From Escherichia phage HelliStehle_Bas95: a DNA stretch of 56,332 nucleotides. The position numbers and the translations under genes were made by a program. Positions within the stretch are counted from its first letter, which is position 1; every line of letters starts with the position of its first letter. Where the stretch lies: the sequence record PQ850607.1, one strand, 5' to 3'. The notes beneath the pieces are model-generated. The model was not told the origin of the DNA. It ran no database searches and was given only the letters and a program-made list of their open reading frames with translations. Shown one piece after another: positions 1 to 56,332 of this stretch.

Positions 1-747
1 ATGACACCAGAAACCCGCGCGGGGTTTATCCTGGAGTACATCGAAGGCGACCTGACCGATCAGTTACTGGCGGCTAAGTACGGCCTGGATGATTACCAGT
101 TTAAGACCGCAGTACATATAGGAACCGGGAACATCATTAAGCCGGAACCGCTAACCCGTGGCCTCAAGCGTGGTATGCATAACAGCGTAGCTGTAACTAA
201 ACTCGCCACCGAAACACTTGACGCTGAAGACATGGCACTCAGTCCTCTACAATCGGCTGAGATTATCGAACCTAAGTCCCGTGACCTGGCGCTCTACCTT
301 AATAACGCGGAACTCAGCTTCGCCAACAACGTGCTCAGGGGAATGAACGCCACCGCCGCCGCCGCCGCCAGCTTTGAGATCTTCAATAAACAACTGGCTG
401 ATAAGAAGGCCGCCGAGTTATTGCGGTCATCTCACGTTGCCGACTACCTGGCGAGCATGAAGGGCCGCAGCTTATTCGCGCCAGTAAGGAACAAAGCGTA
501 TCTTGAGGCCGTGCTATGGCAGGTCATCGACCGTGGCTTACAGCTTAAGCAGGAAGTCGACACGCTTACCGGTATGCCAGTCGAGGGTCAATGCAAATAC
601 GATCCGAAGTCGGTCATTGCCGCAAGTGCGCTACTCTCACGCCTCAAAGGCTGGGATAACGTGGAACAAGGACAAGGCGAAGCAGAAACACAGCGCGACC
701 GCTTACGCCGACTGCAAGCAAACTTTAAACAGATTGGGAGTGAGTAA
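1..747 (+). CDS. hypothetical protein; candidate terminase small subunit (by position only)
   Basis: 248-aa ORF starting at window position 1; stop overlaps terL start at 747; SD AAGGA at 56319-56323 if sequence is circular. Confidence 0.5.
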   Translation: MTPETRAGFILEYIEGDLTDQLLAAKYGLDDYQFKTAVHIGTGNIIKPEPLTRGLKRGMHNSVAVTKLATETLDAEDMALSPLQSAEIIEPKSRDLALYLNNAELSFANNVLRGMNATAAAAASFEIFNKQLADKKAAELLRSSHVADYLASMKGRSLFAPVRNKAYLEAVLWQVIDRGLQLKQEVDTLTGMPVEGQCKYDPKSVIAASALLSRLKGWDNVEQGQGEAETQRDRLRRLQANFKQIGSE

Positions 748-2375
748 TGTCTAAACGTGACGTGTGGGAGTTTGAAACAGACGAAGATGTATGGCTACTG
801 GCCGACTATCTGGAACAGAAAGCCAACAGCGTTAACTTTACATTTGAGGATGACTCAGAGGTAGACGCATTCTTCCTTAAATGTAAGAACGAGTTCCAGT
901 TCTTCGCTGAACGGTGCTGTACCATCCGCACGAAGGATAACACCCTGGAGCCGATACGCCTCAACAAGGCTCAGAAGTATATGTGTGCTATTGCGGCATG
1001 GCAGGCCCATCACACCGGTAAAGTACGCCTCATTATTGTTAAGGGACGTCAGCAAGGGATGAGTACGGTTGTTCAGGCTCGTGCATTCTGGAAGACCATC
1101 CACACTGAAGCGTACAACGCGTTGATCATGGCACACCAGGCTAAGTCCTCCGCTGCACTATTCGATATGACCAAGCGTTACTATCAATATTGCCCAGAGG
1201 ACTTGCAGCCTTCCAAAGGTCACGATAACGGCTTCGTACTTAAGTTTGCTGAACTTGACTCACAATATAGCGTGGCCACCGCTGGTAGCTCTGCCGCTGG
1301 TCGTGGTATGACAGCATCTTATTTTCATGCGTCGGAAGCAGCCTACTTTGCAGATGGTGCCGAGATCGCATCAGGTATCATGCAGGCCATCCCTAACGCT
1401 GACGGTACCGAAGTATTCCTTGAGTCGACCGCTAACGGTGCGTCAGGCTACTTCTATAACCAGTGGATGCAGGCATCCCCGCCACGTGACACGTCGTTGA
1501 AGGATGCTGATAGCTCCGGGTTCATTCGCGTATTCGTACCGTGGTTCTGGCAACCTGAGTACGCTGAACCAGCACCTGAGAGCATGGTGTACACTGACGA
1601 GGAGAGTAAATACGCACGTTTACATGGTCTTACCCGTGATCAGATGTTCTGGCGTCGCATGAAGGTGAAGTCGCTTGATGGTGATACCCGTCGATTTAAC
1701 CGCGATTACCCTGCTACGGCTGAAGAAGCATTCCAGTCTACTGGTGACAACTTGCTGATCAGCGGTGATATGATCGCCTCAGCTCTCTACTGGGCACGCT
1801 CCGGTAAGCTGGACCCGGTAGGTGCTACCGTTATGGGCGTAGACGTTGCTGCTATGGGTGACGACCAGACTGCAATAGTCATTCGCCGTGGCCGCGTGGT
1901 GCAACATGCCGAGACGTTAAGTAAGGCCACCAACAGGGAGATTGCCAACCGTATTCACGTGCTGCGTGAGATGTACGGCGTCAACCACACGTTCATCGAT
2001 GGTACTGGTGGCTTTGGTACAGGTGTACATGACGTAATGACCGAGCGCGGAATGTCCCACGGTGTGACGATGGTTCACTTTGCAGAGAAGGCTACCGAAG
2101 ACCACAAGTACAACAACAAGCGCTCGGAGATGTGGGCGAAAATGCGCGACTGGCTACGTAACGCCGCCGCACTCCCGCCCGGTCATGACTGGGGTCGCGA
2201 CTTATGCGGCGCTACCTATCGCTTTGAAGGTGACAGGTTGAGACTGGAACCGAAGGCTGACATCAAGAAGCGTATCGGTCGCTCGCCGGATATCGGGGAT
2301 GCACTGGCGTTAACCTTCGCGTTCCCTGTGGTCGAGGGTGGCTACAACGACTCTTACGAGCCGGAGTACGCTTAA
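747..2375 (+). CDS. terL: terminase large subunit
   Basis: 542 aa; P-loop-like VKGRQQGMST near N-terminus, acidic nuclease-type C-terminal half; sits upstream of portal/scaffold/capsid. Confidence 0.85.
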   Translation: MSKRDVWEFETDEDVWLLADYLEQKANSVNFTFEDDSEVDAFFLKCKNEFQFFAERCCTIRTKDNTLEPIRLNKAQKYMCAIAAWQAHHTGKVRLIIVKGRQQGMSTVVQARAFWKTIHTEAYNALIMAHQAKSSAALFDMTKRYYQYCPEDLQPSKGHDNGFVLKFAELDSQYSVATAGSSAAGRGMTASYFHASEAAYFADGAEIASGIMQAIPNADGTEVFLESTANGASGYFYNQWMQASPPRDTSLKDADSSGFIRVFVPWFWQPEYAEPAPESMVYTDEESKYARLHGLTRDQMFWRRMKVKSLDGDTRRFNRDYPATAEEAFQSTGDNLLISGDMIASALYWARSGKLDPVGATVMGVDVAAMGDDQTAIVIRRGRVVQHAETLSKATNREIANRIHVLREMYGVNHTFIDGTGGFGTGVHDVMTERGMSHGVTMVHFAEKATEDHKYNNKRSEMWAKMRDWLRNAAALPPGHDWGRDLCGATYRFEGDRLRLEPKADIKKRIGRSPDIGDALALTFAFPVVEGGYNDSYEPEYA

Positions 2376-21133: not shown

Positions 21134-22116
21134 TGAGCATCGGTGAAGCACTGGCGTCAATGTTTGCGGGTGCCGCTGGCGAAGCAGCAGGTAATCGGGC
21201 GGTAGAGATCCGCGACGAAGAAAAGGCACGCATCGCTGAAGCACGCGAAATGAAAATGATGGCACTCCAGCAGAAGTACCAGACGTCCGAGCGTGAGGCC
21301 AGTCAGGCTTACGGCACCGCTGAGCGTCAGGATACTCAGGGTTGGCAGTCTGGCGAGAAGCAGAAAGACCGTGACTTCCAGTCGTCTGAACGTGCTGCGT
21401 CTCAATCCTTCCAGGCGGTACAATCGGATAAAGCGCGTGCTTACCAGGACGCTAAAGAGAAGAAAGCGCAACTGGCGGCACAACAAGAATCCGCAGCGGC
21501 GGTAGGTAGTGTTGACGATTTAGGTAACGCTATCAAACTCGACGGTACACCTTATAAATTGGGTGGCCAGTGGTTGCGCGCTAAACAGTATGCTAACGGT
21601 CGCATTGTGGCTGAACCGCTGGGTGCTACCGCTGCCGAGAAGATGGATAGACGCGTAGCGCTTGAGAATGACGACGGTGACACGCAGAAGTCTCGTGATC
21701 TCACAATCGTTAAAGAAGGTATTAAATCCGGCGACACAACAGGTGTATTCGGTTCGTTTATCAACGCAGGCAACATGGCAGGTGACCTGGCGAGTGCTAA
21801 ACTCGGTAGCGAGAAATCACGCGATGTTTACAACGCTGTAAACCGTATCAATGGTGCGTTGTTGGCACAAGGCGTGGCCGATGCGAAAGCGATGGGTGCA
21901 TCGGGCATCAACACCGCGGCAGAAGCACAGATGTACTTCAAAGGATTGCCGTCGCTTGACTTGTCAAGCCCCGAAGCAGCAATGCGTGCCATTAACCAAA
22001 TCGATGCGTATAATAAAGACTTCAAGCAAAAGCAGCGGCAAGAAGTCGGGCTACCAGCGAACCCCGTGTCTAAACAAAGTAGCGACGGGTCGTTCGGTAG
22101 CAAATACGGTTATTGA
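21133..22116 (+). CDS. hypothetical virion protein
   Basis: 327 aa. Confidence 0.5.
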   Translation: MSIGEALASMFAGAAGEAAGNRAVEIRDEEKARIAEAREMKMMALQQKYQTSEREASQAYGTAERQDTQGWQSGEKQKDRDFQSSERAASQSFQAVQSDKARAYQDAKEKKAQLAAQQESAAAVGSVDDLGNAIKLDGTPYKLGGQWLRAKQYANGRIVAEPLGATAAEKMDRRVALENDDGDTQKSRDLTIVKEGIKSGDTTGVFGSFINAGNMAGDLASAKLGSEKSRDVYNAVNRINGALLAQGVADAKAMGASGINTAAEAQMYFKGLPSLDLSSPEAAMRAINQIDAYNKDFKQKQRQEVGLPANPVSKQSSDGSFGSKYGY

Positions 22117-22122
22117 TTCAAG

Positions 22123-22142
22123 CCGCCCTACGGGGCGGTTTT
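22123..22142 (+). terminator. intra-operon terminator/attenuator hairpin
   Basis: CCGCCC-tacg-GGGCGG followed by TTTT. Confidence 0.5.
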
Positions 22143-22157
22143 CACAGGAGTACTATC

Positions 22158-24362
22158 ATGGCACGTCCTTTTTCTGAAATCGCAGCATCCCCCGAGTTTC
22201 AGGCTGAAACACCGGAGACTCAGGAAGCAATCAAACAAGACTATTTCAATAAGGTGATCCGCCCACAGGTTGAGGCCAATGGGGACGACCCTGACGAGGT
22301 TTTCAACGACTTCTCGTCAAAGTACACATTCAAACAACCTGAAGCGCCTGTGCAGCAACCTGAAGCGCCTGTGCCGCAACAACAGGTTCAACCTTCACCG
22401 GAAGAACAGCAGGCCGCAGCAACCGTTCAGAACTATCTGAACAAGCCCGCTGAAACAGGTTACACCCTGGCCTCATCAGGTAGTGAACCACAGGAAACTA
22501 ATACCGGTATCATCGGTGCTATCAAAAATGCTGTTACTGGTGGTGACGCGGCGGAAGGTAGTGCCGCAAGTTTACCTCTGGCAGGTGAAGCGCCTGAGTT
22601 CTTTGGTAACGGTGTGGACGAAGAACTGAAGAACGGCGACGCACTAGACCAAATGCTCAATTGGGCTGGCAACAGGCTCGGAGGCATCGCTACGAATATG
22701 TTTGGTGGTGACGATTCAATCATCAAACGTGCGGAGTCTCGCGGTGGTAAGGTGTCACAGGATGAGCAGGGTAATGTAATCATTACTTTCCCGTCGGGTA
22801 AATATCAGGTTAACAAACCCGGTCTGGACATCAACGACGTTGCTAAATTTACGGCACAGGCAGCCCCTGCGGTCGCTACAGGTGGAGCGGGTGCAGCATT
22901 AGGTCTCGGCGGACGAATGGTCGCGCAGGGAGCGATTCAGGGCGGTTTAAACTACGCTCAGCAAAAAGCTGTAGAAGCTGGCGACGGTCAGAATGTTGAC
23001 ATGGGTGATGTTGCACTTAACGCGACACTGGGTGGTACTGGTGAGTTACTTGGCCCGGCCCTGCGCGGTGGTCGTGAAATTTTCAAACGCGGCTTAGGTA
23101 ATGCTGACGAGGCCACGAAAGAAGCGTTGAAGATTGCCGACGAAACAGGTATCCCAATCGCCACTTCCGACATGATTGCCGCAGGTGATCTCGGTGGCGG
23201 TGTAACAAAATACGCATCTGCGGTTACAGACAAGCTCGACCCGTTTGCCGCAGGTCGCCTGCGGCAACAGGAACTGATCCCGGAAAAGACCGCCGACATT
23301 TTTGTTGACCCTGAAGTCGCCGCAAAATATACAGACGAAGCTATGATTGAAGCGCTTGATAAAGGTAGTCGCGCACGCATGGCCGACGCTGGTAAACGCT
23401 TCGAAGAAGTGAAGACAGCTATGGGTGACCAGCCGATTCCCGTCCGAAATACCTCAGCGGCTATTGACGACGTGCTGAAAGAATGGGAACGCCCTGGGAC
23501 ACTCGTCGACAAAGGTGACATTGAATACCTGAAAGACATTCAGGCGAAGCTCACAGAAGCGCCACAAGATGTGATTATGCTTCGCGAAAACCGCACGCGC
23601 CTGCGTCAGTCGTTCGGATCCGGTATGAACAAAATGCTGGGTAAAAATGACCTTCAGAAAGCAGGGCGTAAAATTTACGACGCTTTGACTAAGGACATGC
23701 ACGAAGGTGTTGAAAACACGCTGGGTGCTGATGCTTTGACAACGCTCAAATCGGCCGACAAAGACTGGGCGTCTATCAATAGCGATTTAGGTTTCCAGAA
23801 AATTGCGGCAGCCGTTAAGAAAGGCGAGGCCGACCCCGCGCGACTGCGTGAAACGTTAACATCATTCGGCACGGGCGATCTACAAGCGCTTGACCGCAAT
23901 CTCAACGCCGAAGGTCGGAATATGATCAAAGGCGCTGTACATAAAAACTTAATGGCAGCTGCAACCAACGCTGACGGAGAATTTCAACCAGGGGCAATGT
24001 TGCGTGCCATTGAGAAAAACAAGGACGTCATCAAGCAGTTCTACACTCCCGAACAGGCCAAGCAGATTGAAGGTGTGAAGAAACTTCTGTCCACTGCGCG
24101 CGGTGCTAAGGCTGCAACGACCATTGCTAACAACGGTGGCTTGATGCTTCCTATCACTGCGGCGATGGGTGTTGGTTCGGCGGGAATCGGTGGTATTGCG
24201 GCGGCTGCGGGTGGTATTGCGGCTAAACGTTTGAGTAACTCTCGCCCAATGCGAAACGCGCTGATTCGTCTGTCCACCATGAAACCCGGCAGCATGGCCT
24301 ATTACAAGACAGTGAGACAAATCAACGCGATCATCGCGAATCAAGCATCTACCGACGAGTGA
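22158..24362 (+). CDS. large virion protein (possible internal/injection protein)
   Basis: 735 aa from ATG 22158 with SD ACAGGAG; last gene of the + morphogenesis block. Confidence 0.5.
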   Translation: MARPFSEIAASPEFQAETPETQEAIKQDYFNKVIRPQVEANGDDPDEVFNDFSSKYTFKQPEAPVQQPEAPVPQQQVQPSPEEQQAAATVQNYLNKPAETGYTLASSGSEPQETNTGIIGAIKNAVTGGDAAEGSAASLPLAGEAPEFFGNGVDEELKNGDALDQMLNWAGNRLGGIATNMFGGDDSIIKRAESRGGKVSQDEQGNVIITFPSGKYQVNKPGLDINDVAKFTAQAAPAVATGGAGAALGLGGRMVAQGAIQGGLNYAQQKAVEAGDGQNVDMGDVALNATLGGTGELLGPALRGGREIFKRGLGNADEATKEALKIADETGIPIATSDMIAAGDLGGGVTKYASAVTDKLDPFAAGRLRQQELIPEKTADIFVDPEVAAKYTDEAMIEALDKGSRARMADAGKRFEEVKTAMGDQPIPVRNTSAAIDDVLKEWERPGTLVDKGDIEYLKDIQAKLTEAPQDVIMLRENRTRLRQSFGSGMNKMLGKNDLQKAGRKIYDALTKDMHEGVENTLGADALTTLKSADKDWASINSDLGFQKIAAAVKKGEADPARLRETLTSFGTGDLQALDRNLNAEGRNMIKGAVHKNLMAAATNADGEFQPGAMLRAIEKNKDVIKQFYTPEQAKQIEGVKKLLSTARGAKAATTIANNGGLMLPITAAMGVGSAGIGGIAAAAGGIAAKRLSNSRPMRNALIRLSTMKPGSMAYYKTVRQINAIIANQASTDE

Positions 24363-24964
24363 TTACGGAAAGGGGTGTTGTACAGCCCCTTAATTTCTTT
24401 AATTGCTGCGGTCACGTTCGTAAACCAGACGATTCTAGCAAAGAACACGACCCCCAACGTACACCATGAAATGAACCATGTCATCGGGTCCATAACACCG
24501 AAGAATGCTGGCGCAAACGTCAGGGTGAACGCCATACCGACATAACCTACAACATTCATGACAGCATTAAACCACGACTTTTTAAGCATCTCGGTCATAG
24601 CAAAACGCATGGCTTCTTCTGTCAACTCTCCGCGATTAGTGCGCTTGATTTTGGATACGGTAGGTGTTTTCGACATGTTCAGGACAAACCACACACCACC
24701 AGTGATCACTAAAGTACCAACACTCAGTACATCAAAGGATAAACCTGCGACGATAAGTAACAGACCTACAGTCCAGTTGAAGGTGCGGGATGTACCGAAC
24801 AATGCGCCAAACACCGCCTGTGTAGTCCGCTGACCAACGTATTTCTTCAACGTCTCCAGGTCTTCAACTTTATAGCGATTTAACGACACTACGCGTACAG
24901 CGTGCAATCTGTTGTCAGCACCGTAGTATTTAACGTTTCTGTTTTTCTTCTCTGAATATTTCAT
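24341..24964 (-). CDS. polytopic membrane protein of unknown function
   Basis: 207 aa with about 4 hydrophobic helices; 3' end overlaps the convergent 735-aa gene. Confidence 0.5.
   Translation of the reverse strand: MKYSEKKNRNVKYYGADNRLHAVRVVSLNRYKVEDLETLKKYVGQRTTQAVFGALFGTSRTFNWTVGLLLIVAGLSFDVLSVGTLVITGGVWFVLNMSKTPTVSKIKRTNRGELTEEAMRFAMTEMLKKSWFNAVMNVVGYVGMAFTLTFAPAFFGVMDPMTWFISWCTLGVVFFARIVWFTNVTAAIKEIKGLYNTPFRNHSSVDA
24370..24391 (+). terminator. terminator hairpin closing the morphogenesis block
   Basis: AAGGGG...CCCCTT stem followed by AATTTCTTT. Confidence 0.5.
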
Positions 24965-25472
24965 AATTTTCTCTCACTATTCGTGTATAGCCGCGATTGT
25001 ATTTGAACTCTGGTCCCCAGTCTGTGACACGTGCCACATTGTGGAAATTATGCATTTCGATTCTGATTTGCGATTCTTTACAGCCAAACATGGCCGCTAT
25101 CTTGTCGCACCAGCTGAGATCCGTTTCAGCAATTCTGGCGACAACCTCATCGGCCACGGTTTGTGGAGAATCGATACCGTAAAGGTCTTCTATTTCCAGC
25201 CATAACTTAGTACCTGCCAGCCGCCTGGTCACCGACCACAACCATTGTGTATGTGCTGTTTGACCCAATGCTTTACGGGGTGACATATGCCCCAGTATTT
25301 CGTGCCTGGCGACTTCTTTCAGTCTGTAGGCAGGCATCGGGAAGAACACTACAGCTTCCTCACTGTACAGCGCCACCGCCTCAACGTTATAGGGCATCGG
25401 GTGAAACGACTCACACTTCAGATAATGAACGTCACATATACCGTCAACCAACCTGTCTACATAAGCACTCAT
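24930..25472 (-). CDS. HExxH-motif protein (putative ImmA/SprT-like zinc metallopeptidase)
   Basis: 180 aa containing VARHEILGHM; strong SD AAGGAGG; overlaps downstream membrane-protein gene. Confidence 0.45.
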   Translation of the reverse strand: MSAYVDRLVDGICDVHYLKCESFHPMPYNVEAVALYSEEAVVFFPMPAYRLKEVARHEILGHMSPRKALGQTAHTQWLWSVTRRLAGTKLWLEIEDLYGIDSPQTVADEVVARIAETDLSWCDKIAAMFGCKESQIRIEMHNFHNVARVTDWGPEFKYNRGYTRIVRENYEIFREEKQKR

Positions 25473-25492
25473 AGAGCCTCCTTTTCACGTCA

Positions 25493-25528
25493 AATATACT
25501 TGACGATGTTAACGCTGTCAAGTATATT
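25493..25528. promoter_or_regulatory. overlapping divergent sigma70-type promoters embedded in a 12-bp perfect inverted repeat
   Basis: + strand TTGACG-17-TATATT (25500-25528); - strand TTGACA-17-TATATT (25493-25522); AATATACTTGAC/GTCAAGTATATT dyad around GTTAAC. Confidence 0.6.
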
Positions 25529-25557
25529 CGGAAAACCACTAAACGGAGATCACATCA

Positions 25558-25769
25558 TGAATTTACCACCGTTACCACCATCGTCACAGATATTCAGAGA
25601 AACCCTGAAAATTGTCAGTGACGCTAAGTCACGCGGAGTAACCATCGGCAGCACTGTAAACTACGGCGGGTCGACGTATGTCGTCGATAAGTTTCACGGT
25701 AGGGCGGTACGTCTTCTTAACGACACAGGTGGCGCGATTATAGTTGACGTCAGAGAGGTCAACCGATAA
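25558..25769 (+). CDS. small hypothetical protein
   Basis: 70 aa; SD ACGGAG; downstream of + promoter. Confidence 0.5.
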
Positions 25770-25810
25770 GCTGTAGTTTCTCGATGACATTCCCTGTAGA
25801 TTGATAGCGC

Positions 25811-25841
25811 GCCCTTTCCACTTTGGTTAGGGCTTTTTTTT
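25811..25841 (+). terminator. rho-independent terminator
   Basis: GCCCT...AGGGC stem followed by T8. Confidence 0.5.
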
Positions 25842-25887
25842 GTGCTATTCTCTAGTCTGGAGTTACAGGGTGCATGGAGCATTTCAT

Positions 25888-26262
25888 ATGGACATGGGAT
25901 ATTACAACATGAACAAGCAGATTAGAGTGGAAATGCTTGTCGGCATGGTGACACTTGCATGGTCAATCGTGGCGGCAGTCTTCAAACAGCCGATCATTAT
26001 CGACGAGTTATCTGGTGTTATGCCGGGCGCATATTGGGTATTCTCAGGTATCGTAATCGGAGGCGCACAAATCTTCATCTCCCGCAATCCCGACCGATGG
26101 ATGGGAACATTCAGTCACTGGTGTGTAGCGTTCTTCAGTTGTATCTTCTGGTGTTATCTCGGCATGGCCGCACAGGCTGCCGCAGTAGGAGTTCTTCCCG
26201 TCCTGATTTTCTGGTCAACCGCTGGTATCACTTTATGGGAGTTGGCTCATGTTCGAACTTAG
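25888..26262 (+). CDS. membrane protein
   Basis: about 125 aa, several hydrophobic helices; start codon uncertain. Confidence 0.45.
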   Translation: MDMGYYNMNKQIRVEMLVGMVTLAWSIVAAVFKQPIIIDELSGVMPGAYWVFSGIVIGGAQIFISRNPDRWMGTFSHWCVAFFSCIFWCYLGMAAQAAAVGVLPVLIFWSTAGITLWELAHVRT

Positions 26263-26482
26263 TTCAATTCCTGTGGATGCGCCGTTACCTTTCATTGCCA
26301 TCGCTGTGTTATTCAACCTGGTGCGCCATGCGTTGAATCTTCACCACGAACGTAAGAAGGAAGCTGCGGAAGAGGCCACGAACGAAAGGATTGTTTTGTT
26401 GTCAGCTAAACTGGCGAGGGCGGAACAGACTATCGAGCACTTGAGGGAAGAAGTGGAACGCTTAGTAAACAAAGGGGCTTAA
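26249..26482 (+). CDS. small membrane-anchored coiled-coil protein
   Basis: 77 aa; N-terminal hydrophobic helix then charged helical region. Confidence 0.45.
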   Translation: MFELSSIPVDAPLPFIAIAVLFNLVRHALNLHHERKKEAAEEATNERIVLLSAKLARAEQTIEHLREEVERLVNKGA

Positions 26483-26493
26483 CGCCCCTTTTT
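26471..26493. terminator. bidirectional terminator shared by convergent genes
   Basis: AAAGGGGC-ttaac-GCCCCTTTTT; both stop codons (TAA 26480-26482 on +, TAA at 26479-26481 on -) lie in the loop. Confidence 0.6.
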
Positions 26494-26679
26494 AATACTC
26501 GCTGCAATTTTTAACTGCACAGGTACACGGTCAGGATCGCGGTGAATACCTACATCCGACGGTGCGGAAATGCGTAGACCGACGTTACCGTTCTCGGAGT
26601 TCTCCACCGTCACGACAATATCGTTACCGATGTAAACACTCTGACCTTCACGTCTGGTAATACGAAGTCCCTTAGCCAT
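26479..26679 (-). CDS. csrA: CsrA/RsmA-family RNA-binding regulator homologue
   Basis: 66 aa MAKGLRITRREGQSVYIGNDIVVTVENSENGNVGLRISAPSDVGIHRD matches CsrA pattern L-I-T-R-R-x-G-x4-I-G-x4-V-T-V...AP..V..HR. Confidence 0.75.
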   Translation of the reverse strand: MAKGLRITRREGQSVYIGNDIVVTVENSENGNVGLRISAPSDVGIHRDPDRVPVQLKIAASIKKGR

Positions 26680-26905
26680 TGATCTCCGCCTTAGCTTTCT
26701 TAGCTTTGATGACGCGACTAATCGCCACCAGTAAAGTGATAACACCAGACACGACCGGGAGATATTCCTCCGGTACCACAGCCTGGAATAAATGTGGGGC
26801 AGTTTGCCACACGATGAGTGCTGCGTCAGGTACGGTGGTCAGTACGGTGGTCACAGCGATACCAATAGTAATACCAGCATCATGCAATGCTTTAGATTTA
26901 TCCAT
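26672..26905 (-). CDS. holin-like small membrane protein
   Basis: 77 aa, two hydrophobic helices and basic C-terminus; immediately downstream of endolysin. Confidence 0.55.
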   Translation of the reverse strand: MDKSKALHDAGITIGIAVTTVLTTVPDAALIVWQTAPHLFQAVVPEEYLPVVSGVITLLVAISRVIKAKKAKAEING

Positions 26906-26961
26906 CGTGGATACTCCTTGATTTGGCGTCCTTGCCAGGATGAGCGACCCCGACTGGCCGC

Positions 26962-27492
26962 TTAGATATTGACGCGATTAGCAACCCACCCGTAAATGAA
27001 CGAGCGATTTTTAGCGTTGCTTTCGGTAAGCTCAATATACCGTACGCACTGGAGACTGTTAAGCATTTTCAGTAATACTTTAGTGCCAACGCTACCGCGT
27101 GAACGCAGGAAGTCTGCGAGGGCATTCACTGTACGCTTACCGATAGCACCATCCACTACGAGGCCAGCGCCTGACACAGCGTTGAGTGCACGCTGGAGGA
27201 ATTTACCAGCCACCGTCGGACCCATGTTCACGCCAGTGTCCACCACTTCCGCAGCTACAGCCGGGTCAAGTTCAGCCAGTCGGTGATAGCCGGGATTGAT
27301 CACGTAGTCTTTGTAGTAGATGTCGTAGGCTGTGGTAACAGGTAAGTCCCGCATGTTACCTTTATATCCGGCAGCACGGGCAACCTTTTCAGTGATGCCG
27401 TATTTGGTAGCGCCGCCCGGATCATTCGGATGGTCTACGTATCCACCTTCAACGCGAATAATCTCGTCGATGATTTCACGGATGCTTGTCAT
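26962..27492 (-). CDS. endolysin, glycoside hydrolase family 108 with C-terminal peptidoglycan-binding domain
   Basis: EGGYVDHPNDPGGATKYGIT signature near N-terminus; 176 aa. Confidence 0.8.
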   Translation of the reverse strand: MTSIREIIDEIIRVEGGYVDHPNDPGGATKYGITEKVARAAGYKGNMRDLPVTTAYDIYYKDYVINPGYHRLAELDPAVAAEVVDTGVNMGPTVAGKFLQRALNAVSGAGLVVDGAIGKRTVNALADFLRSRGSVGTKVLLKMLNSLQCVRYIELTESNAKNRSFIYGWVANRVNI

Positions 27493-28343
27493 AGCGTTGC
27501 TCCTTTTTCAGTTACGTATGGCTCGCAAACTTCTGCGAGGATGTCAAGATACCGACTGGCCTTGTCGTACTGCAACAGGATGTCGCCGCAGTCATCAGCT
27601 TCCTTATCCTTATCGTACGGTACCACCATATCGGTGTACCGGGTACACGCGAAGTAACCTTCGTCACCCGCGTAAGAGAAGTTGGCCGCCTGCACATTCG
27701 GGAAGTCCTTCAGCGTGGAGAACACCTTGTCGTTGCCTGACAGGTTTTCCATTTTGCGGAAGGTTGCCGTAGCTTTGAAAGCACCGTACAGGTCCAGGCT
27801 GTCGCCCAGTTCCAGAGGATGCTCATCTTCCCGGTCGATGTTCAGCGTAGCTCGTACCATTTGGCAAAACGCCGTAGGCTGGAGATAACTTTCAATCGGC
27901 AGGCTGTTAAAAGCCTGACGCAATAGTTGCGTGACCTTTTCAACCACACGGGGAGAAGCGCCCACAAAAAGAGCATCTCGATCTGGGTCATACGCCACCC
28001 AGCCGTAGTCGTTAGAAGGGAGTACGTTCTCCCACATTTCCGCTTTAACTTGTTCATAAATGGCATTGGATTCATCCCGGTTAAAAGTTTTATCTTTAGT
28101 GCGGCGAGCGAACTCAGCACGCAACCACTTGTCCGGCACCTTGCGTTTCTGGTACTGGAACTGTAGGAAGGTGATGCCCTTGTGTACCCAGGTCATCTCG
28201 TCCTGCATAGGGTTAGCCGCGATGAGGCCAATGCTTTCTTCGTTCCCTGCAGTGCACGGTTTGAAGTACGCATCCTCATTCGGCTTCGACAGGTCAAGTT
28301 CCTTCTCGACCGTGAACGCGGTGACTTTAAATTTTGCCGTCAT
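27489..28343 (-). CDS. hypothetical protein (weak resemblance to recombination-associated RdgC)
   Basis: 284 aa; call is tentative. Confidence 0.45.
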   Translation of the reverse strand: MTAKFKVTAFTVEKELDLSKPNEDAYFKPCTAGNEESIGLIAANPMQDEMTWVHKGITFLQFQYQKRKVPDKWLRAEFARRTKDKTFNRDESNAIYEQVKAEMWENVLPSNDYGWVAYDPDRDALFVGASPRVVEKVTQLLRQAFNSLPIESYLQPTAFCQMVRATLNIDREDEHPLELGDSLDLYGAFKATATFRKMENLSGNDKVFSTLKDFPNVQAANFSYAGDEGYFACTRYTDMVVPYDKDKEADDCGDILLQYDKASRYLDILAEVCEPYVTEKGATL

Positions 28344-28692
28344 GTTCTTCCCACCAGATTAATTTTTCCAGGCAGTCTTTCGCCTTGTTCAAATCTTCCA
28401 GACGCTTCGCCTTGTCGCCTTTCTTGCGCAGGTATTTAACCACGCTGAACTCCAGGCTACTCAGGTTGTTCACCATTGCATATTCGAAAGGTTGAATGCC
28501 TTTCTTATAGTGCTGGCCGCCCACCTGGTTATCCCACGGATTGACACGCGGCGCGACACTGAATGAATTACCAAACACTGTACCGGTATCAGTTTTCGGT
28601 ATACCCAGGTCGACACCACTGACCGCAGGCTTCCACGGGCAGTCAACGTTGTCGTGGTTTTTACCACAGGCTGAGCAATATGATTGAGTCAT
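28327..28692 (-). CDS. DUF3310-like phage protein with N-terminal zinc ribbon
   Basis: GGQHY..GIQP.EY ... KYLRKKGDKAKRLEDLNKA pattern. Confidence 0.55.
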   Translation of the reverse strand: MTQSYCSACGKNHDNVDCPWKPAVSGVDLGIPKTDTGTVFGNSFSVAPRVNPWDNQVGGQHYKKGIQPFEYAMVNNLSSLEFSVVKYLRKKGDKAKRLEDLNKAKDCLEKLIWWEEHDGKI

Positions 28693-29255
28693 CAGAATTT
28701 CTTCCCATGTGCTTCAGCGCGAGCGCCAGGTTGATGGTCGGCACGCTTACGGTTGTAAGCAACCTTCTCCATGATGGCCCCGATGATATCCAGGTTTTCG
28801 CTTTCGGCGATGTCGAGAATGCGGATGATTGCGTCGGCCAGTTCCACTTCCAGCATGGAGCGGTTCGGCAGGTGGTCATCCATCAGGTTCTTACGTGCAC
28901 CTTCCATCGCTTCAGAGATCTCACTGTGCACCAGGCACAACAGAGTACCCATCTCACGCGGCTTATCCCACCAACCCATCTGACGATTCTGACGGTGGAT
29001 GCGACGTTGCAGGATAGCGAACGGGATACTGCGGTACAGTTCGGTGCTGGCCGACTCGACACGCTTGCAACCCATCACTTCAGACTCAACTTCCACTTTC
29101 CCATCTTCAGCTTTGATCGGATTAATACTCATCTTTTCGGAATCCTTATTAGGTTGATTGTCTTTCATGAAACTGTGACCACCATGAATCGATTGATTGC
29201 AGCCGGGTGATGCACCAACTTCGTTTACACCACAGTGTATGCAAGATCTACTCAT
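28692..29255 (-). CDS. MazG-like nucleoside triphosphate pyrophosphohydrolase
   Basis: C-terminal EMGTLLCLVHSEISEAMEGARK...ELADAIIRILDIAE; start placed at ATG 29255 with SD GGGGA. Confidence 0.6.
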   Translation of the reverse strand: MSRSCIHCGVNEVGASPGCNQSIHGGHSFMKDNQPNKDSEKMSINPIKAEDGKVEVESEVMGCKRVESASTELYRSIPFAILQRRIHRQNRQMGWWDKPREMGTLLCLVHSEISEAMEGARKNLMDDHLPNRSMLEVELADAIIRILDIAESENLDIIGAIMEKVAYNRKRADHQPGARAEAHGKKF

Positions 29256-29382
29256 CTTTTTCATTCCCCTTTTTACGACCGATTTTACCACTGCATACAG
29301 GGCATTCCTCGCCCCACTTCTTAGCACTGTAATGACCGTGCTCGCCACACTTCCGTAAATCGTTAAGCCATAAGATAGCCAT
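29248..29382 (-). CDS. small zinc-ribbon protein
   Basis: 44 aa MAILWLNDLRKCGEHGHY...CPVCSG; below six-frame track cutoff; downstream of promoter at 29416-29444. Confidence 0.4.
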   Translation of the reverse strand: MAILWLNDLRKCGEHGHYSAKKWGEECPVCSGKIGRKKGNEKDE

Positions 29383-54373: not shown

Positions 54374-54519
54374 ACCAATCCTTAACGCCGAGGAATGTTT
54401 CCACCTGGTCGCGCTCTACTGGTCCGCGAGCGGCATAGTTTGCGAAGTCTGCCTGATGACCTTTGTGGTTGATATACGATTTGAACATGTTTATTGCCTC
54501 TTTAAGTTAGATTAGTTGC

Positions 54520-54774
54520 TTACTTATGCTTAGGTTGCCAGTGTTTTAAGAGCACCTCCTTATCTTCAGGGTAATTTAACGAAGCACTCGCCGAAAATGT
54601 GCTCATGGTTGTGTAAACCTTACCGCCTACCATAAAACTTTCACTGCGTTGATGCGGTACCTCGACACGGCGACCGGAAGGTAGTACGCCTACAAAGGTA
54701 TCTCCGACTATTGACGACTTACCAAGCTGTAACCCACCCGGACAAACGTTATTGAACACGTCGTAAGGTCTCAT
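54520..54774 (-). CDS. hypothetical protein
   Basis: 84-aa ORF. Confidence 0.5.
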   Translation of the reverse strand: MRPYDVFNNVCPGGLQLGKSSIVGDTFVGVLPSGRRVEVPHQRSESFMVGGKVYTTMSTFSASASLNYPEDKEVLLKHWQPKHK

Positions 54775-55814
54775 AATTTAATCTCCCGTTTAAAGTTATC
54801 AGCTTTATTAGCGTTACTGGCATTGCGCATCAACATATAAGCCTGCATGGCCTCGCGGATCACGTGGCGGATGTGCTGCAGTATATCGAAGTGTCCCCCG
54901 GTTAAGCCTGGAGTGGTCAAAGCAATATTATTAATCCACGCCATATCTTCAGGGTATTCCATCACATCCTTACCCGTCTTGAGTCTGCCGCCAACACCAA
55001 CACCCTTGGCGTCCGTGTAGCGCAGGCTCCAGTCTTTGCGACCCTGGAGGCAAGGCAACTTATCATAAAGGTAAGCTACCGCAGGCGCTGGCGGCTCATT
55101 AACCCACATAAAAGCCATAGTGTCATGATGGTAGACGCTGGCCCGTGCCTGGCGGTAACGCTCAGACGCTGAATCAACGCACTTAACACAGCCGCCGTTG
55201 GACGTGTAGCGTTGAGTGGATGCGCAACGTTTGCAGGGTGTCGACTCGTAGAACTTTAAGCCCTGCTCTAAAGCCTGGCCTCGCGGCGACTCAACGCTTG
55301 GCCCTTTAATGCACATCACACAGCCGCCGTTAGAGGTGAAGCGCTCCGTAGTCCCACACTTACCACAAGGTGAACCGTCGTACCTTTTGAGGCCATTGGC
55401 TTTAGCTAACTGGCGGGGAGTCGGTGTACGGTCAAGCGGCTTTAAGCTGGCAATATGACATTGCTGACATTTTGTGGTTGTCACCAGTCTTGTGGTTGAA
55501 CCACATTTAACGCACGGCTGCCCTTCATATGTTTTAGCACCCGACGCTTTAGCTGCGATGCGTGCATCTACTATCGGCGACGGTCGACCGCCTCCACATC
55601 CTTTGCGCTGACACTCAACACAGGAACCGTTAGCTGTGTAACGTTCAGATCGCACACCTTCAAAACATTGTATACAAGGGCGTCCCCAGTAACGAGGGTT
55701 GCGCTCGGCGCGCGCTTCTCTTCTTGAGTCGGCTGGCGGTTGCCGCTTCCCTTTCTCCTCAGGTACGTTCTCATCCATCCAGGCGAAAACTTCGTTCATG
55801 TCTAACTCTTCCAT
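54771..55814 (-). CDS. early protein with five tandem zinc-ribbon repeats
   Basis: 347 aa; repeats of Y-x-G-x-PC-x-KCG-(S/T)-T-x-R-(Y/F)-T-S-N-G-x-C-V-x-C; first gene after the leftward early promoter. Confidence 0.6.
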   Translation of the reverse strand: MEELDMNEVFAWMDENVPEEKGKRQPPADSRREARAERNPRYWGRPCIQCFEGVRSERYTANGSCVECQRKGCGGGRPSPIVDARIAAKASGAKTYEGQPCVKCGSTTRLVTTTKCQQCHIASLKPLDRTPTPRQLAKANGLKRYDGSPCGKCGTTERFTSNGGCVMCIKGPSVESPRGQALEQGLKFYESTPCKRCASTQRYTSNGGCVKCVDSASERYRQARASVYHHDTMAFMWVNEPPAPAVAYLYDKLPCLQGRKDWSLRYTDAKGVGVGGRLKTGKDVMEYPEDMAWINNIALTTPGLTGGHFDILQHIRHVIREAMQAYMLMRNASNANKADNFKREIKL

Positions 55815-55846
55815 TGGTATACCTCCAGTTGTTTAGTTGAGATTGC

Positions 55847-55875
55847 AGTTTACTACAGGTTAGATAGCAGGTCAA
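55847..55875 (-). promoter_or_regulatory. leftward early promoter TTGACC-17-TAAACT
   Basis: read on - strand; AT-rich upstream region; about 26-nt leader with SD GGAGGT. Confidence 0.45.
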
Positions 55876-55881
55876 CTAACC

Positions 55882-56055
55882 AAACTCGTAGCCCTCCTAA
55901 AATATTCAAAAACTTTCTTAGAAATTTTGTAGAACACTAACTAAGTAATACTTATATATCTAACTTAATATACTATAATCTATTGCTTGCGATAATATAT
56001 ATCTAACTTAATGTACTATTCAGCAGCTTAAATATTTTGGGTGGGCTACGAGTTT
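55882..56055. repeat. control-region repeats: 13-bp inverted repeat pair flanking two 24-bp direct repeats
   Basis: AAACTCGTAGCCC (55882-55894) / GGGCTACGAGTTT (56043-56055); TATATATCTAACTTAAT(A/G)TACTAT at 55953-55976 and 55996-56019; CTAACTAAGTAA at 55937 and 56141. Confidence 0.6.
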
Positions 56056-56267
56056 AATACTTTAACGTTAGGTCTAACCTATACGTGGGTCTTCTTCTCT
56101 TCCTTCCAAATATTTTCAGGGTGCTAACACCCGTGGCCCCCTAACTAAGTAAAGCAGCCGTTAGCATCTAACTAAGCTCAAAGTTTAGCCAATTCCTGTA
56201 GCGCTATGCGAAATCTAAGAAAGCAGCAGGGTAAGACATCTGGCCTTTTTACGCAGACGCGCGATAT

Positions 56268-56311
56268 TTGTGTGACACGCATCACACTGTTATGATGTGC
56301 AGGTGATCACA
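56268..56311 (+). promoter_or_regulatory. candidate rightward promoter for gene 1, overlapped by two CRP-like sites
   Basis: TTGTGT-17-TATGAT (56268-56296); TGTGA-N6-TCACA at 56271-56286 (perfect half-sites) and TGTGC-N6-TCACA at 56296-56311. Confidence 0.4.
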
Positions 56312-56332
56312 AACACCTAAAGGAATGACGTC

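What the first reader, a model, noticed from the sequence alone, without database searches (positions are those of the whole stretch)
54771..55814. First early gene encodes five tandem zinc-ribbon repeats
The promoter-proximal gene of the leftward early block contains five copies of a roughly 40-aa unit (PC-x-KCGST-x-RYTSNGGCV-x-C), followed by a non-repetitive C-terminal domain. First-injected early genes commonly encode anti-defence or host-takeover factors; an array of zinc ribbons suggests nucleic-acid or protein binding with multivalency. I cannot assign a family by eye.
Basis: inference. Interest (0 to 1): 0.55.

Follow-up and report, generated by a model that had tools for sequence, protein, structure and literature searches.

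The report
Four-zinc-module early phage DNA-binding protein
The first gene of this coliphage's leftward small-gene block encodes four (not five) tandem four-cysteine zinc modules joined to a domain with no known relatives; its counterpart in phage PTXU04 is needed for infection, so it is more likely a core DNA-binding control protein than an accessory anti-defence factor.

Summary
The ORF at 54771-55814 (-) is real and has homologues, but it holds four Cys4 units, not five. A unit profile built only from other proteins hits it four times (i-E 1e-10 to 6e-20) and hits none of 200 shuffles. A conserved 126-aa C-terminal domain follows. It models well (pLDDT 86) but has no match by sequence or fold in Pfam, PHROGs, PDB or BFVD.

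The window is a relative of Xuquatrovirus (PTXU04, Pondi). The family is rare: 12 credible representatives among 1.84 billion proteins. Every full-length member with this domain has 2-4 units.

The same zinc unit occurs alone in small phage proteins. It also forms the N-terminus of 'endonuclease VII'/HNH-type phage nucleases. This probably explains the weak 'endonuclease' label given to PTXU04 gp92. No nuclease domain is present here.

In a published genome-wide knockdown screen, gp92 is one of 17 genes required for infection and the only one in its small-gene block.

My best reading is an early, zinc-dependent DNA-binding protein acting on phage DNA. The adjacent control region offers candidate targets: clustered TAGTTAG repeats and a long inverted repeat. 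The function is inferred, not shown. Anti-defence and nuclease readings are not supported.

The parts
54771..55814 (-). CDS, 347 aa: acidic N-terminus, four Cys4 zinc units, orphan C-terminal domain
   Evidence: ORF list. Full-length homologues at 90, 79 and 58% identity, and a shorter PTXU04/Pondi-type group at about 41%.
55725..55814 (-). N-terminal acidic segment (aa 1-30; aa 1-40 has pI 4.6), predicted helix aa 6-15
   Evidence: Composition and AF2 secondary structure. Read by eye from the sequences: a similar acidic start in P0003, P0014 and PTXU04 gp92, absent in Pondi.
55602..55724 (-). Zinc unit 1 (aa 31-71; C47, C50, C65, C68), diverged, 14-residue spacer
   Evidence: Unit HMM i-E 1.7e-10; cysteine positions.
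55455..55556 (-). Zinc unit 2 (aa 87-120; C101, C104, C116, C119), diverged hairpin (RLVTTTK)
   Evidence: Unit HMM i-E 1.2e-11; cysteine positions.
55302..55415 (-). Zinc unit 3 (aa 134-171; C150, C153, C165, C168); aligns with unit 1 of the two-unit orthologues
   Evidence: Unit HMM i-E 6.2e-20; alignment A1.
55164..55280 (-). Zinc unit 4 (aa 179-217; C194, C197, C209, C212); aligns with unit 2 of the two-unit orthologues
   Evidence: Unit HMM i-E 1.5e-18; alignment A1.
54774..55151 (-). C-terminal domain (aa 222-347): small alpha/beta core plus a 39-residue terminal helix; no known relatives
55822..55826 (-). Shine-Dalgarno GGAGG, 7 nt before the ATG
   Evidence: Sequence. CTGGAGG is shared by 4 relatives' upstream regions.
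55847..55875 (-). Sigma70-like promoter TTGACC-17-TAAACT (candidate early promoter)
   Evidence: Consensus scan (the number of such sites in the region is not above the shuffle expectation). Equivalent hexamers lie at the same aligned position in L008 (TTGATT/TAAAAT) and L004. Function not shown.
55937..56175 (-). Cluster of five T[AT]AGTTAG motifs, all in the gene's orientation: candidate binding sites (inference only)
   Evidence: 5 of the genome's 6 TWAGTTAG copies and 5 of its 10 WAGTTAG copies lie here. TAGTTAG is the top shared 7-mer of the variable upstream regions of five relatives.
55854..56083 (.). Long inverted repeat (arms 55854-55909 and 56028-56083) enclosing two 24-nt direct repeats; the proximal arm overlaps the candidate promoter
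   Evidence: A long inverted repeat was found in all five upstream regions scanned (window, L004, L008, Pondi, L009), with unrelated sequence. PTXU04 was inspected by eye only. ssDNA fold z = -5.1.
54520..54774 (-). Downstream 84-aa ORF overlapping the stop codon by ATGA (possible translational coupling); unknown function
   Evidence: No PHROG or PADLOC hit. ORFs of 85 and 80 aa occupy the same position in L004 and L008.

Best explanation
The gene encodes a zinc-dependent nucleic-acid-binding protein made from the host-polymerase promoter at one edge of the phage's divergent control region.

Proposed parts and roles:
- Four tandem Cys4 modules form a basic, modular DNA-binding array. Each module is a helix, a strand, a CxxC knuckle, a strand carrying a conserved Arg-Tyr-Thr/Ser-x-Asn-Gly hairpin, and a second CxxC that starts a helix.
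- The orphan C-terminal domain, with its long terminal helix, provides oligomerisation or the contact to an effector such as host RNA polymerase or the replication machinery.

Proposed function: the protein acts on the phage's own DNA to drive a step every infection needs. The most likely step is switching transcription beyond the early class and/or controlling its own promoter. The most plausible targets are the TAGTTAG repeats and the long inverted repeat directly upstream of the gene.

Shown: the domain architecture, its conservation, the sharing of the unit with nuclease families, and the requirement for the orthologue in PTXU04.

Inferred: zinc binding, DNA binding, the target sites and the process controlled.
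For: - Four significant Cys4 units with invariant cysteines. The array is basic, pI 9.3.
- The same unit is the N-terminal module of proteins matching phrog_1035 'endonuclease VII' (E 1.4e-19 and 2.8e-21), phrog_3322 'endonuclease' and phrog_3118 'HNH endonuclease'. A 68-aa single-unit protein aligns to positions 49-111 of phrog_1035. The unit therefore travels with DNA-acting enzymes.
- Sub-threshold but recurrent similarity of the GxPCxxCG knuckle to the Fpg/IleRS zinc finger PF06827 (E 0.0056-0.3).
- Unit number varies from 2 to 4 among orthologues while the C-terminal domain stays constant, as expected for a modular binding array.
- PTXU04 gp92 is 'Fit' (score 1.82, KS p 5.5e-4). It is one of 17 such genes and the only one in that phage's leftward small-gene block, gp47-gp92. 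The screen was run in BL21, and the method was shown to avoid major polar effects (PMC11879866).
- PTXU04 has no annotated RNA polymerase, sigma factor or late activator, so a phage-encoded regulator of host RNAP is expected.
- The upstream region carries a motif cluster found almost nowhere else in the genome. A degenerate inverted copy sits in the promoter spacer; it is an exact copy in L008.
- The C-terminal domain has no conserved catalytic-type residue set. Its invariant positions are Y, P, G and D.
Against: - There is no direct evidence of DNA binding, of zinc binding or of timing of expression.
- The unit has no solved or annotated DNA-binding homologue above threshold.
- Small Cys4 modules can also bind RNA or proteins.
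- The TAGTTAG cluster could be bound by one of the other small predicted DNA-binding proteins of the early block. It could instead be promoter or origin sequence.
- The motif is missing from the diverged relative L009, and only one exact copy is present in the four-unit relative L004.
- The motif is confined to one region rather than found at several operons. That fits a local role (autoregulation, origin, terminus) better than a global late activator.
- Essentiality was measured on a 41%-identical two-unit orthologue, not on this protein.
Confidence: 0.4

Rival explanations
1. Origin- or terminus-binding protein. The array binds the adjacent inverted repeat and repeat region, which would be the replication origin or lie next to the physical genome end. 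It would be needed for replication initiation, end protection, genome entry or terminase recognition, not for transcription.
For: - A long inverted repeat is kept at this place in the relatives examined while its sequence changes. It encloses AT-rich direct repeats and has strong hairpin potential.
- PTXU04 is not circularly permuted (PMC6563267).
- The PTXU04 GenBank record is cut inside a GGCCACGGG that is exact in four of the five upstream regions; Pondi has GGCCACCCG.
- The gene is always divergent from terS-terL.
- No origin-binding protein is annotated in PTXU04.
- The unit is shared with endonuclease VII-type proteins, which recognise branched DNA.
- The motif is local to this region.
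Against: - The origin and the physical ends are not mapped.
- Synteny is uninformative within one collinear lineage.
- No similarity to known initiators or terminase accessory proteins.
- The inverted-repeat arms overlap the candidate promoter, so they may be transcriptional elements.
Confidence: 0.22
2. Host-takeover or anti-defence factor. The protein binds a host protein or host nucleic acid to shut down a host process or an immune system.
For: - Position as first gene behind a host-type promoter.
- Acidic N-terminal peptide.
- Orphan C-terminal domain typical of fast-evolving phage-host interface proteins.
- An essential takeover function would also give a 'Fit' phenotype.
Against: - Required in BL21. 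By my own knowledge, not tested here, BL21 is restriction-deficient (hsdS).
- All other genes of the small-gene block are dispensable or only semi-fit in the same screen.
- No PADLOC hit.
- Overall basic, not a DNA mimic.
- Relative HelliStehle is very sensitive to RM systems (PMC11990801).
- The unit co-occurs with DNA enzymes.
Confidence: 0.18
3. Endonuclease, as labelled with low confidence by HHpred for PTXU04 gp92. The protein would cut DNA, for example host DNA or phage concatemer junctions.
For: - 'Endonuclease' annotation with quality 'Unknown'/weak in PMC11879866.
- Unit shared with phrog_1035, phrog_3322 and phrog_3118 nucleases.
- Location next to terminase genes is reminiscent of HNH packaging accessory proteins (my own knowledge).
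Against: - The similarity is confined to the zinc unit.
- The window protein does not hit phrog_1035, phrog_3322 or phrog_3118. Its C-terminal domain hits no PHROG or Pfam family.
- hhalign of the C-terminal profile against the two nuclease-fused proteins gives probability below 1%.
- No invariant His or Asn in the C-terminal domain.
- The gene is divergent from, not co-oriented with, the terminase genes.
Confidence: 0.07
4. RNA-binding post-transcriptional regulator. The zinc modules bind phage or host mRNA or tRNA.
For: Small Cys4 ribbons bind RNA in several systems (my own knowledge). Weak similarity to the Fpg/IleRS finger, which in IleRS lies in a tRNA-binding enzyme.
Against: No specific evidence. 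The co-occurring enzymes are annotated as DNA nucleases. No structured RNA family is detected nearby.
Confidence: 0.05

Closest known systems
PTXU04 gp92 (PTXU04_00092 / HOV50_gp92) and Pondi_00016, Xuquatrovirus
   Same: - Same C-terminal domain, about 41% identity over the C-terminal half.
- Same zinc unit.
- Same position as first gene of the leftward block, divergent from terS.
- gp92 is required for infection in a genome-wide knockdown screen.
   Different: These orthologues have two units instead of four. They lack window units 1 and 2. Their function is unknown apart from a weak 'endonuclease' label.
Phage 'endonuclease VII'/HNH-type proteins with N-terminal Cys4 unit(s) (phrog_1035, phrog_3322, phrog_3118; examples P0009, P0010)
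   Same: The same Cys4 unit, in 1-3 copies, at the N-terminus.
   Different: Their C-terminus is a nuclease domain. The window protein has an unrelated orphan domain with no nuclease signature.
Stand-alone single- or double-unit phage proteins (phrog_1081, phrog_23777, phrog_15231; e.g. Vibrio phage NVP1251O_18)
   Same: Same unit. The Vibrio phage protein also heads a small-gene operon at a divergent junction.
   Different: They are 54-146 aa, have no orphan C-terminal domain, have unknown function, and none has four units.
Fpg/Nei/IleRS zinc finger (Pfam PF06827)
   Same: A GxPCxxCG first knuckle followed by a beta-hairpin and a second CxxC. In Fpg/Nei this finger contacts DNA (my own knowledge).
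   Different: The matches are below Pfam's threshold, cover only the first knuckle, and were found in homologues, not in the window protein. PF06827 is a single finger at the end of an enzyme, not an array.
Zinc-finger phage transcription regulators (P2 Ogr / P4 Delta, lambda Q) and essential first-entry DNA-binding proteins (T5 A2): functional analogies only
   Same: Small phage-encoded zinc-containing or DNA-binding proteins that are indispensable for progression of infection (my own knowledge; the T5 A1/A2 phenotype is in PMC11879866).
   Different: No sequence or fold similarity was detected. Architecture and unit type are different.

Membership tests
Xuquatrovirus gp92-type family (Cys4 units + orphan C-terminal domain) | C-terminal domain with the YHS..WVxEPP...LY..P...W..Y.DA...TG.DV.ERP signature | tested here: met
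   Alignments A1-A3. A profile search recovers only this family, 12 credible representatives.
Xuquatrovirus gp92-type family (Cys4 units + orphan C-terminal domain) | Two or more N-terminal Cys4 units | tested here: met
   Four units in the window protein; 2-4 in the other full-length members.
Xuquatrovirus gp92-type family (Cys4 units + orphan C-terminal domain) | First gene of the small-gene block, divergent from terS-terL | tested here: met
   Window, PTXU04, Pondi, L004, L008, L009 and L011.
Phage Cys4 unit families phrog_15231 / phrog_1081 / phrog_23777 | Significant match to the family profile | tested here: met
   E 3.7e-36 (4 stretches), 5.3e-19 and 1.8e-18.
Zinc ribbon / Cys4 zinc finger in general | Two CxxC knuckles with conserved cysteines flanking a beta-hairpin | tested here: met
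   Three cysteines are invariant and the fourth is over 90% conserved across 44 units. The AF2 secondary structure is strand-knuckle-strand-knuckle-helix. The second knuckle starts a helix, so the unit may be closer to a treble clef than to a classical ribbon.
Zinc ribbon / Cys4 zinc finger in general | Binds one zinc ion per unit | not testable with these tools
   Needs metal analysis of purified protein.
HNH / endonuclease VII nucleases | Beta-beta-alpha-metal catalytic core with conserved His/Asn (H-N-H/N) residues | tested here: not met
Fpg/IleRS zinc finger PF06827 | Score above Pfam's gathering threshold (21.3 bits) | tested here: not met
   The window protein gives no hit. Homologues reach 11.3-16.9 bits, covering only profile positions 1-14.
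DNA-mimic anti-restriction proteins (Ocr/ArdA type) | Strongly acidic protein mimicking DNA | tested here: not met
   Whole protein pI 9.15; only aa 1-40 are acidic. No family hit.
Known zinc-finger phage regulators (Ogr/Delta PF04606, DksA/TraR PF01258) | Match to the Pfam family | tested here: not met
   These families do not appear in the Pfam scan at E<=10.

The most novel reading that the evidence does not exclude
The protein is a nuclease-less derivative of the zinc module used by endonuclease VII-type enzymes. It recognises DNA shape rather than sequence. Its target would be the long inverted repeat, which can form a cruciform or hairpin and which every examined relative keeps next to the gene (and possibly next to the physical genome end) while its sequence drifts. 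Binding of this structure would be the essential step that licenses genome entry, replication or packaging. This would be a previously undescribed type of essential phage terminus/cruciform-binding protein.
Probability: 0.12. Interest if true: 0.75.

Novelty: new variant of a known kind. Interest (0 to 1): 0.5.

Why it matters
Xuquatrovirus-type podoviruses are almost uncharacterised. A published screen showed that most of their essential genes have no known function, and gp92 is the only required gene in the whole small-gene block.

This analysis removes the misleading 'endonuclease' label. It defines the domain architecture: an acidic tip, 2-4 zinc modules and an orphan domain. It also points to concrete candidate DNA targets next to the gene. 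The essential function is therefore directly testable by gel shift, footprinting, or transcript and DNA time courses under knockdown.

It also shows that a small phage-specific Cys4 module occurs alone, in arrays and on nucleases. That would help annotate several PHROG families of unknown function if its ligand were determined.

Tried and rejected
- Near-identity DNA search of the locus against phages gave no match. The window is not in that collection; the closest relatives are PTXU04 and Pondi at about 82% over the structural genes.
- Pfam, NCBIfam and PADLOC on the full protein gave nothing meaningful.
- PDB sequence searches with the full-family, unit and C-terminal profiles, and with the nuclease-fused relatives, gave nothing below E 0.1.
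- Foldseek of the full model against PDB gave nothing. That model has low global confidence (pTM 0.34).
- AFDB50 was unavailable.
They returned almost no candidates, so the spread of the single unit is under-sampled.
- Locus searches with the C-terminal profile found none in IMG/VR, none in 185,579 species genomes and 3 in metagenomes. Alignment A3 was too diverse for the tool.
- The idea that the C-terminal domain is a degenerate HNH domain was rejected.
- The idea that the Vibrio phage two-unit protein shares the C-terminal domain was rejected.
- A fifth, degenerate unit was not found by the unit HMM, even at E up to 1000.
- A terminal repeat in the PTXU04 record or in the window was not found.
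- No Rfam family in the locus and no tRNA in the window.
- The count of units against the count of TAGTTAG motifs is suggestive: 4 units with 5-6 motifs in two phages, and 2 units with 2-3 motifs in two phages. L004 (4 units, 1 exact motif) and L009 (none) break it, and the sample is tiny. It is not used as evidence.
Full report
**1. The observation**

A GGAGG ribosome-binding site lies 7 nt upstream. The protein has eight CxxC pairs arranged as four CxxC-x11-14-CxxC units: C47/50/65/68, C101/104/116/119, C150/153/165/168 and C194/197/209/212. Two further solitary cysteines are present.

To test the repeats against chance without circularity, I built a profile from 39 units of other proteins. 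Units of the window protein and of its three closest homologues were left out.
- The profile hits the window protein exactly four times, at aa 31-71, 87-120, 134-171 and 179-217.
- The independent E-values are 1.7e-10, 1.2e-11, 6.2e-20 and 1.5e-18.
- The best hit in 200 shuffles of the protein is 0.92, and no fifth, degenerate unit appears.
- phrog_15231 also matches in four stretches.
- Three unit cores are still 67-83% identical at DNA level.

So the repeats are real, but there are four, not five. Units 3 and 4 carry the quoted motif, and units 1 and 2 are diverged.

**2. Where the window comes from, and the gene's setting**

The structural module of the window is about 82% identical at DNA level to Escherichia phages PTXU04 and Pondi (genus Xuquatrovirus) and is collinear with them. 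The locus itself has no near match in the phage collection.
- Window ORF 1..747 corresponds to PTXU04 gp01, a putative small terminase (weak phrog_51 hit; HHpred annotation in PMC11879866). ORF 747..2375 corresponds to the large terminase.
- In circularly permuted metagenome assemblies the zinc gene and terS are divergent neighbours, separated by 475-520 nt. The right end of the window therefore abuts its left end, and 55815-56332 is a divergent control region.
- The zinc gene is the first of a long run of tightly packed small minus-strand ORFs reaching down to about 42.6 kb.
- A sigma70-like TTGACC-17-TAAACT lies at 55875-55847. Equivalent hexamers occupy the same aligned position in relatives L008 (TTGATT/TAAAAT) and L004.
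- The consensus scan as such is not enriched over shuffles. The promoter is a conserved candidate, not a demonstrated one.
- 'Early' and 'first injected' remain inferences from layout.

**3. The family**

A search of 5.8 billion proteins found nine relatives:
- three full-length four-unit proteins at 90, 79 and 58% identity;
- a group of two-unit proteins that includes Pondi_00016;
- one protein (P0009) with three units and a different C-terminus.

An exhaustive profile search with the C-terminal domain against 1.84 billion cluster representatives found only 14 hits. Of these, 12 are credible. One of the other two is a low-complexity artefact, and a second, weak 134-aa hit lacks units. Every full-length credible hit combines 2-4 N-terminal units with this domain.

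The domain was not found in IMG/VR contigs or in one genome for each of 185,579 prokaryotic species. Three loci turned up in metagenomes. It is therefore a rare module with no copy found in bacterial genomes, and all known carriers belong to this collinear lineage. In all seven loci examined the gene is divergent from terS-terL. Because these phages are collinear throughout, this says little beyond common descent.

In the family alignment the two units of the short orthologues align with window units 3 and 4. Units 1 and 2 are therefore an N-terminal extension of the array.

**4. The zinc unit**

Across 44 units, three cysteines are invariant, the fourth is over 90% conserved, and an arginine in the hairpin between the knuckles is nearly invariant. 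The consensus is R..A...G...Y.G.PCK.CG.TERYTSNGGCV.C.

The full-length AlphaFold model has modest confidence (pLDDT 71.8, pTM 0.34). It gives each unit the same secondary structure: helix, strand, knuckle, strand, then a second knuckle at the start of a helix. The array is basic (pI 9.3), and the first 40 residues are acidic (pI 4.6).

There is no Pfam, NCBIfam or PDB sequence match. The only recurrent hint is a sub-threshold match of the GxPCxxCG knuckle to the Fpg/IleRS zinc finger, seen in homologues only.

The informative result comes from PHROGs.
- The unit defines families of unknown function: phrog_15231, phrog_1081 and phrog_23777. These include 54-68-aa single-unit proteins.
- The two proteins that carry the unit with a different C-terminus match phrog_1035 'endonuclease VII' (E 1.4e-19 and 2.8e-21). 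One of them also matches phrog_3322 'endonuclease' and phrog_3118 'HNH endonuclease'.
- A single-unit protein aligns to positions 49-111 of phrog_1035.

The unit is thus a mobile module that accompanies DNA-cutting enzymes. This is the main argument that it binds DNA.

**5. The C-terminal domain**

Modelled alone with an 18-sequence alignment, the domain gives a confident model (pLDDT 86, pTM 0.76). It has a few short strands and helices and ends in a 39-residue helix.
- Foldseek against BFVD gives nothing at E<=0.001.
- No Pfam, PHROG or PDB sequence hit appears for any member.
- The invariant positions are a Tyr, a Pro, a Gly and an Asp. No His or Asn is invariant.
- Profile comparison with the nuclease-bearing relatives gives probabilities below 1%.

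The domain is therefore not a recognisable nuclease and has no known fold relative within the libraries available. AFDB50 could not be searched.

**6. Published functional evidence on the orthologue**

Adler et al. (Nat Microbiol 2025, PMC11879866) ran a transcriptome-wide dCas13d knockdown screen on PTXU04.
- gp92 (PTXU04_00092) has two units plus the C-terminal domain and is about 41% identical to the window protein over the C-terminal half.
- gp92 is one of 17 'Fit' genes, meaning its knockdown impairs infection (score 1.82, KS p 5.5e-4).
- It is the only Fit gene in the leftward small-gene block gp47-gp92.
- The assay host was BL21. The authors report that all guides against Fit genes reduced plating or plaque size, and that the method avoids major polar effects.
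- Their HHpred annotation of gp92 is 'endonuclease', graded as unknown or weak. Section 4 suggests this label reflects the zinc unit only.
- The same annotation table lists no RNA polymerase, sigma factor, late activator or origin-binding protein for PTXU04.

Humolli et al. (PLoS Biol 2025, PMC11990801) report that a Xuquatrovirus relative is very sensitive to restriction-modification systems.

**7. The adjacent control region (candidate targets)**

- The octamer T[AT]AGTTAG occurs six times in the 56-kb window. Five copies lie at 55937-56175, all in the gene's orientation. The sixth lies in the next intergenic gap at 54503. With the relaxed WAGTTAG, five of ten copies lie in this 0.9% of the genome.
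- In an unbiased count, TAGTTAG is the most widely shared 7-mer of the otherwise unalignable variable parts of the upstream regions of five coliphage relatives.
- An inverted copy lies in the spacer of the candidate promoter. It is exact in L008 and degenerate in the window.
- All five upstream regions scanned for repeats (window, L004, L008, Pondi, L009) have a long inverted repeat just upstream of the gene, with arms of 30-72 nt set 47-118 nt apart. A similar repeat was seen by eye in PTXU04.
- The arm sequences are unrelated between phages: within-locus complementarity scores 20-38, against between-locus arm similarity of 4-13. The window's element folds far better than shuffles (z = -5.1).
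- These features suit operators, an origin or a terminus. Nothing shows that the zinc protein binds them. The motif is absent from the diverged relative L009, and only one exact copy is present in L004.

**8. Explanation and rivals**

The best-supported reading is an early zinc-dependent DNA-binding protein with a modular array and an orphan effector or oligomerisation domain. It would be required in every infection, most likely as a regulator of the phage programme acting on phage DNA (confidence 0.4).

A closely related rival is an origin- or terminus-binding role at the adjacent inverted repeat (0.22). It is favoured by three things:
- the motif is local to this region;
- PTXU04 is not circularly permuted (PMC6563267);
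- the PTXU04 record is cut inside a GGCCACGGG shared by four of the five upstream regions.

A host-takeover or anti-defence role (0.18) is weakened by four points: the requirement in BL21, the dispensability of the neighbouring small genes, the basic charge, and the RM sensitivity of a relative. A nuclease role (0.07) fails its defining test. An RNA-binding role (0.05) has no specific support.

**9. Novelty and verdict**

The protein belongs to an uncharacterised, rare family whose existence and importance for infection are already on record through PTXU04 gp92. What is new here:
- the correct architecture, with four units in this lineage against two in the type phage;
- the recognition that the unit is a widespread phage module shared with endonuclease VII-type proteins;
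- the evidence that the C-terminal domain is an orphan and not a nuclease;
- the concrete candidate DNA targets.

I class it as a new variant of a known kind, a zinc-finger DNA-binding phage protein, of moderate interest. It would rise if the protein proved to recognise the structurally conserved inverted repeat.

Noticed in passing
window 55854-55909 and 56028-56083 (also L004 5767-5802/5912-5947, L008 2732-2803/2888-2959, L001 3776-3833/3881-3938, L009 4831-4860/4968-4997): A long inverted repeat sits just upstream of the zinc gene in all five upstream regions scanned, but the arm sequences are unrelated between phages. Within-locus complementarity scores are 20-38, against between-locus similarity of 4-13. 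The window's element folds with z = -5.1 as ssDNA. The structure is conserved while the sequence is not, which suggests a cruciform or hairpin element or concerted evolution of two promoter/operator arms.
   Followed up: partly
window 55937-56175 (five copies) and 54503-54510: T[AT]AGTTAG is almost confined to this control region: 5 of the genome's 6 copies, all on one strand. TAGTTAG is the top shared 7-mer of the relatives' variable upstream regions. Two of the copies lie inside 24-nt direct repeats at 55953-55976 and 55996-56019.
   Followed up: partly
window 56271-56286, within about 56200-56332: A perfect TGTGA-N6-TCACA dyad (the CRP-site consensus, from my own knowledge) is the only copy in the genome. 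It lies in a block of about 130 nt next to terS that is nearly identical in five phages whose remaining intergenic DNA is unalignable. The spacer varies between phages while the half-sites are kept. TGtTATGAT (extended -10-like) follows directly. The diverged relative L009 has three such dyads. It may be the late-operon control site or a terminase recognition site.
   Followed up: partly
window 56131-56139: GGCCACGGG (read on the minus strand) is exact in four of the five upstream regions compared; Pondi has GGCCACCCG. The PTXU04 GenBank record begins and ends exactly inside it, and PTXU04 is reported as not circularly permuted. The physical genome end may therefore lie in this intergenic region. 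No terminal repeat was found in the PTXU04 record or in the window.
   Followed up: partly
window 2372-3910 (-): A 512-aa ORF on the opposite strand, just after the large terminase gene, matches HNH/homing endonuclease families (phrog_559 E 4.7e-78, phrog_3339 E 8e-54). PTXU04 has a forward tail-protein gene at the corresponding place. It is probably a homing-endonuclease insertion; the same ORF is present in relative L004.
   Followed up: no
window about 22113-24362 compared with PTXU04 22690-29283: PTXU04's essential 2,198-aa 'polyvalent' protein gp25 has no ORF of comparable length in the window; the longest ORF anywhere is 954 aa. The window genome is about 5 kb shorter than PTXU04.
   Followed up: no
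window 54520-54774 (-): An 84-aa ORF overlaps the zinc gene's stop codon by ATGA, which suggests translational coupling. ORFs of 85 and 80 aa occupy the same position in L004 and L008. It has no PHROG or PADLOC hit.
   Followed up: partly
L003 2986-3426 (Vibrio phage 1.251.O, NVP1251O_18): About 37 marine Vibrio phages of about 60 kb carry a 146-aa two-unit protein. The first unit has CxxG in place of the first CxxC. In the one locus examined it heads a small-gene operon at a divergent junction. It lacks the orphan C-terminal domain.
   Followed up: partly
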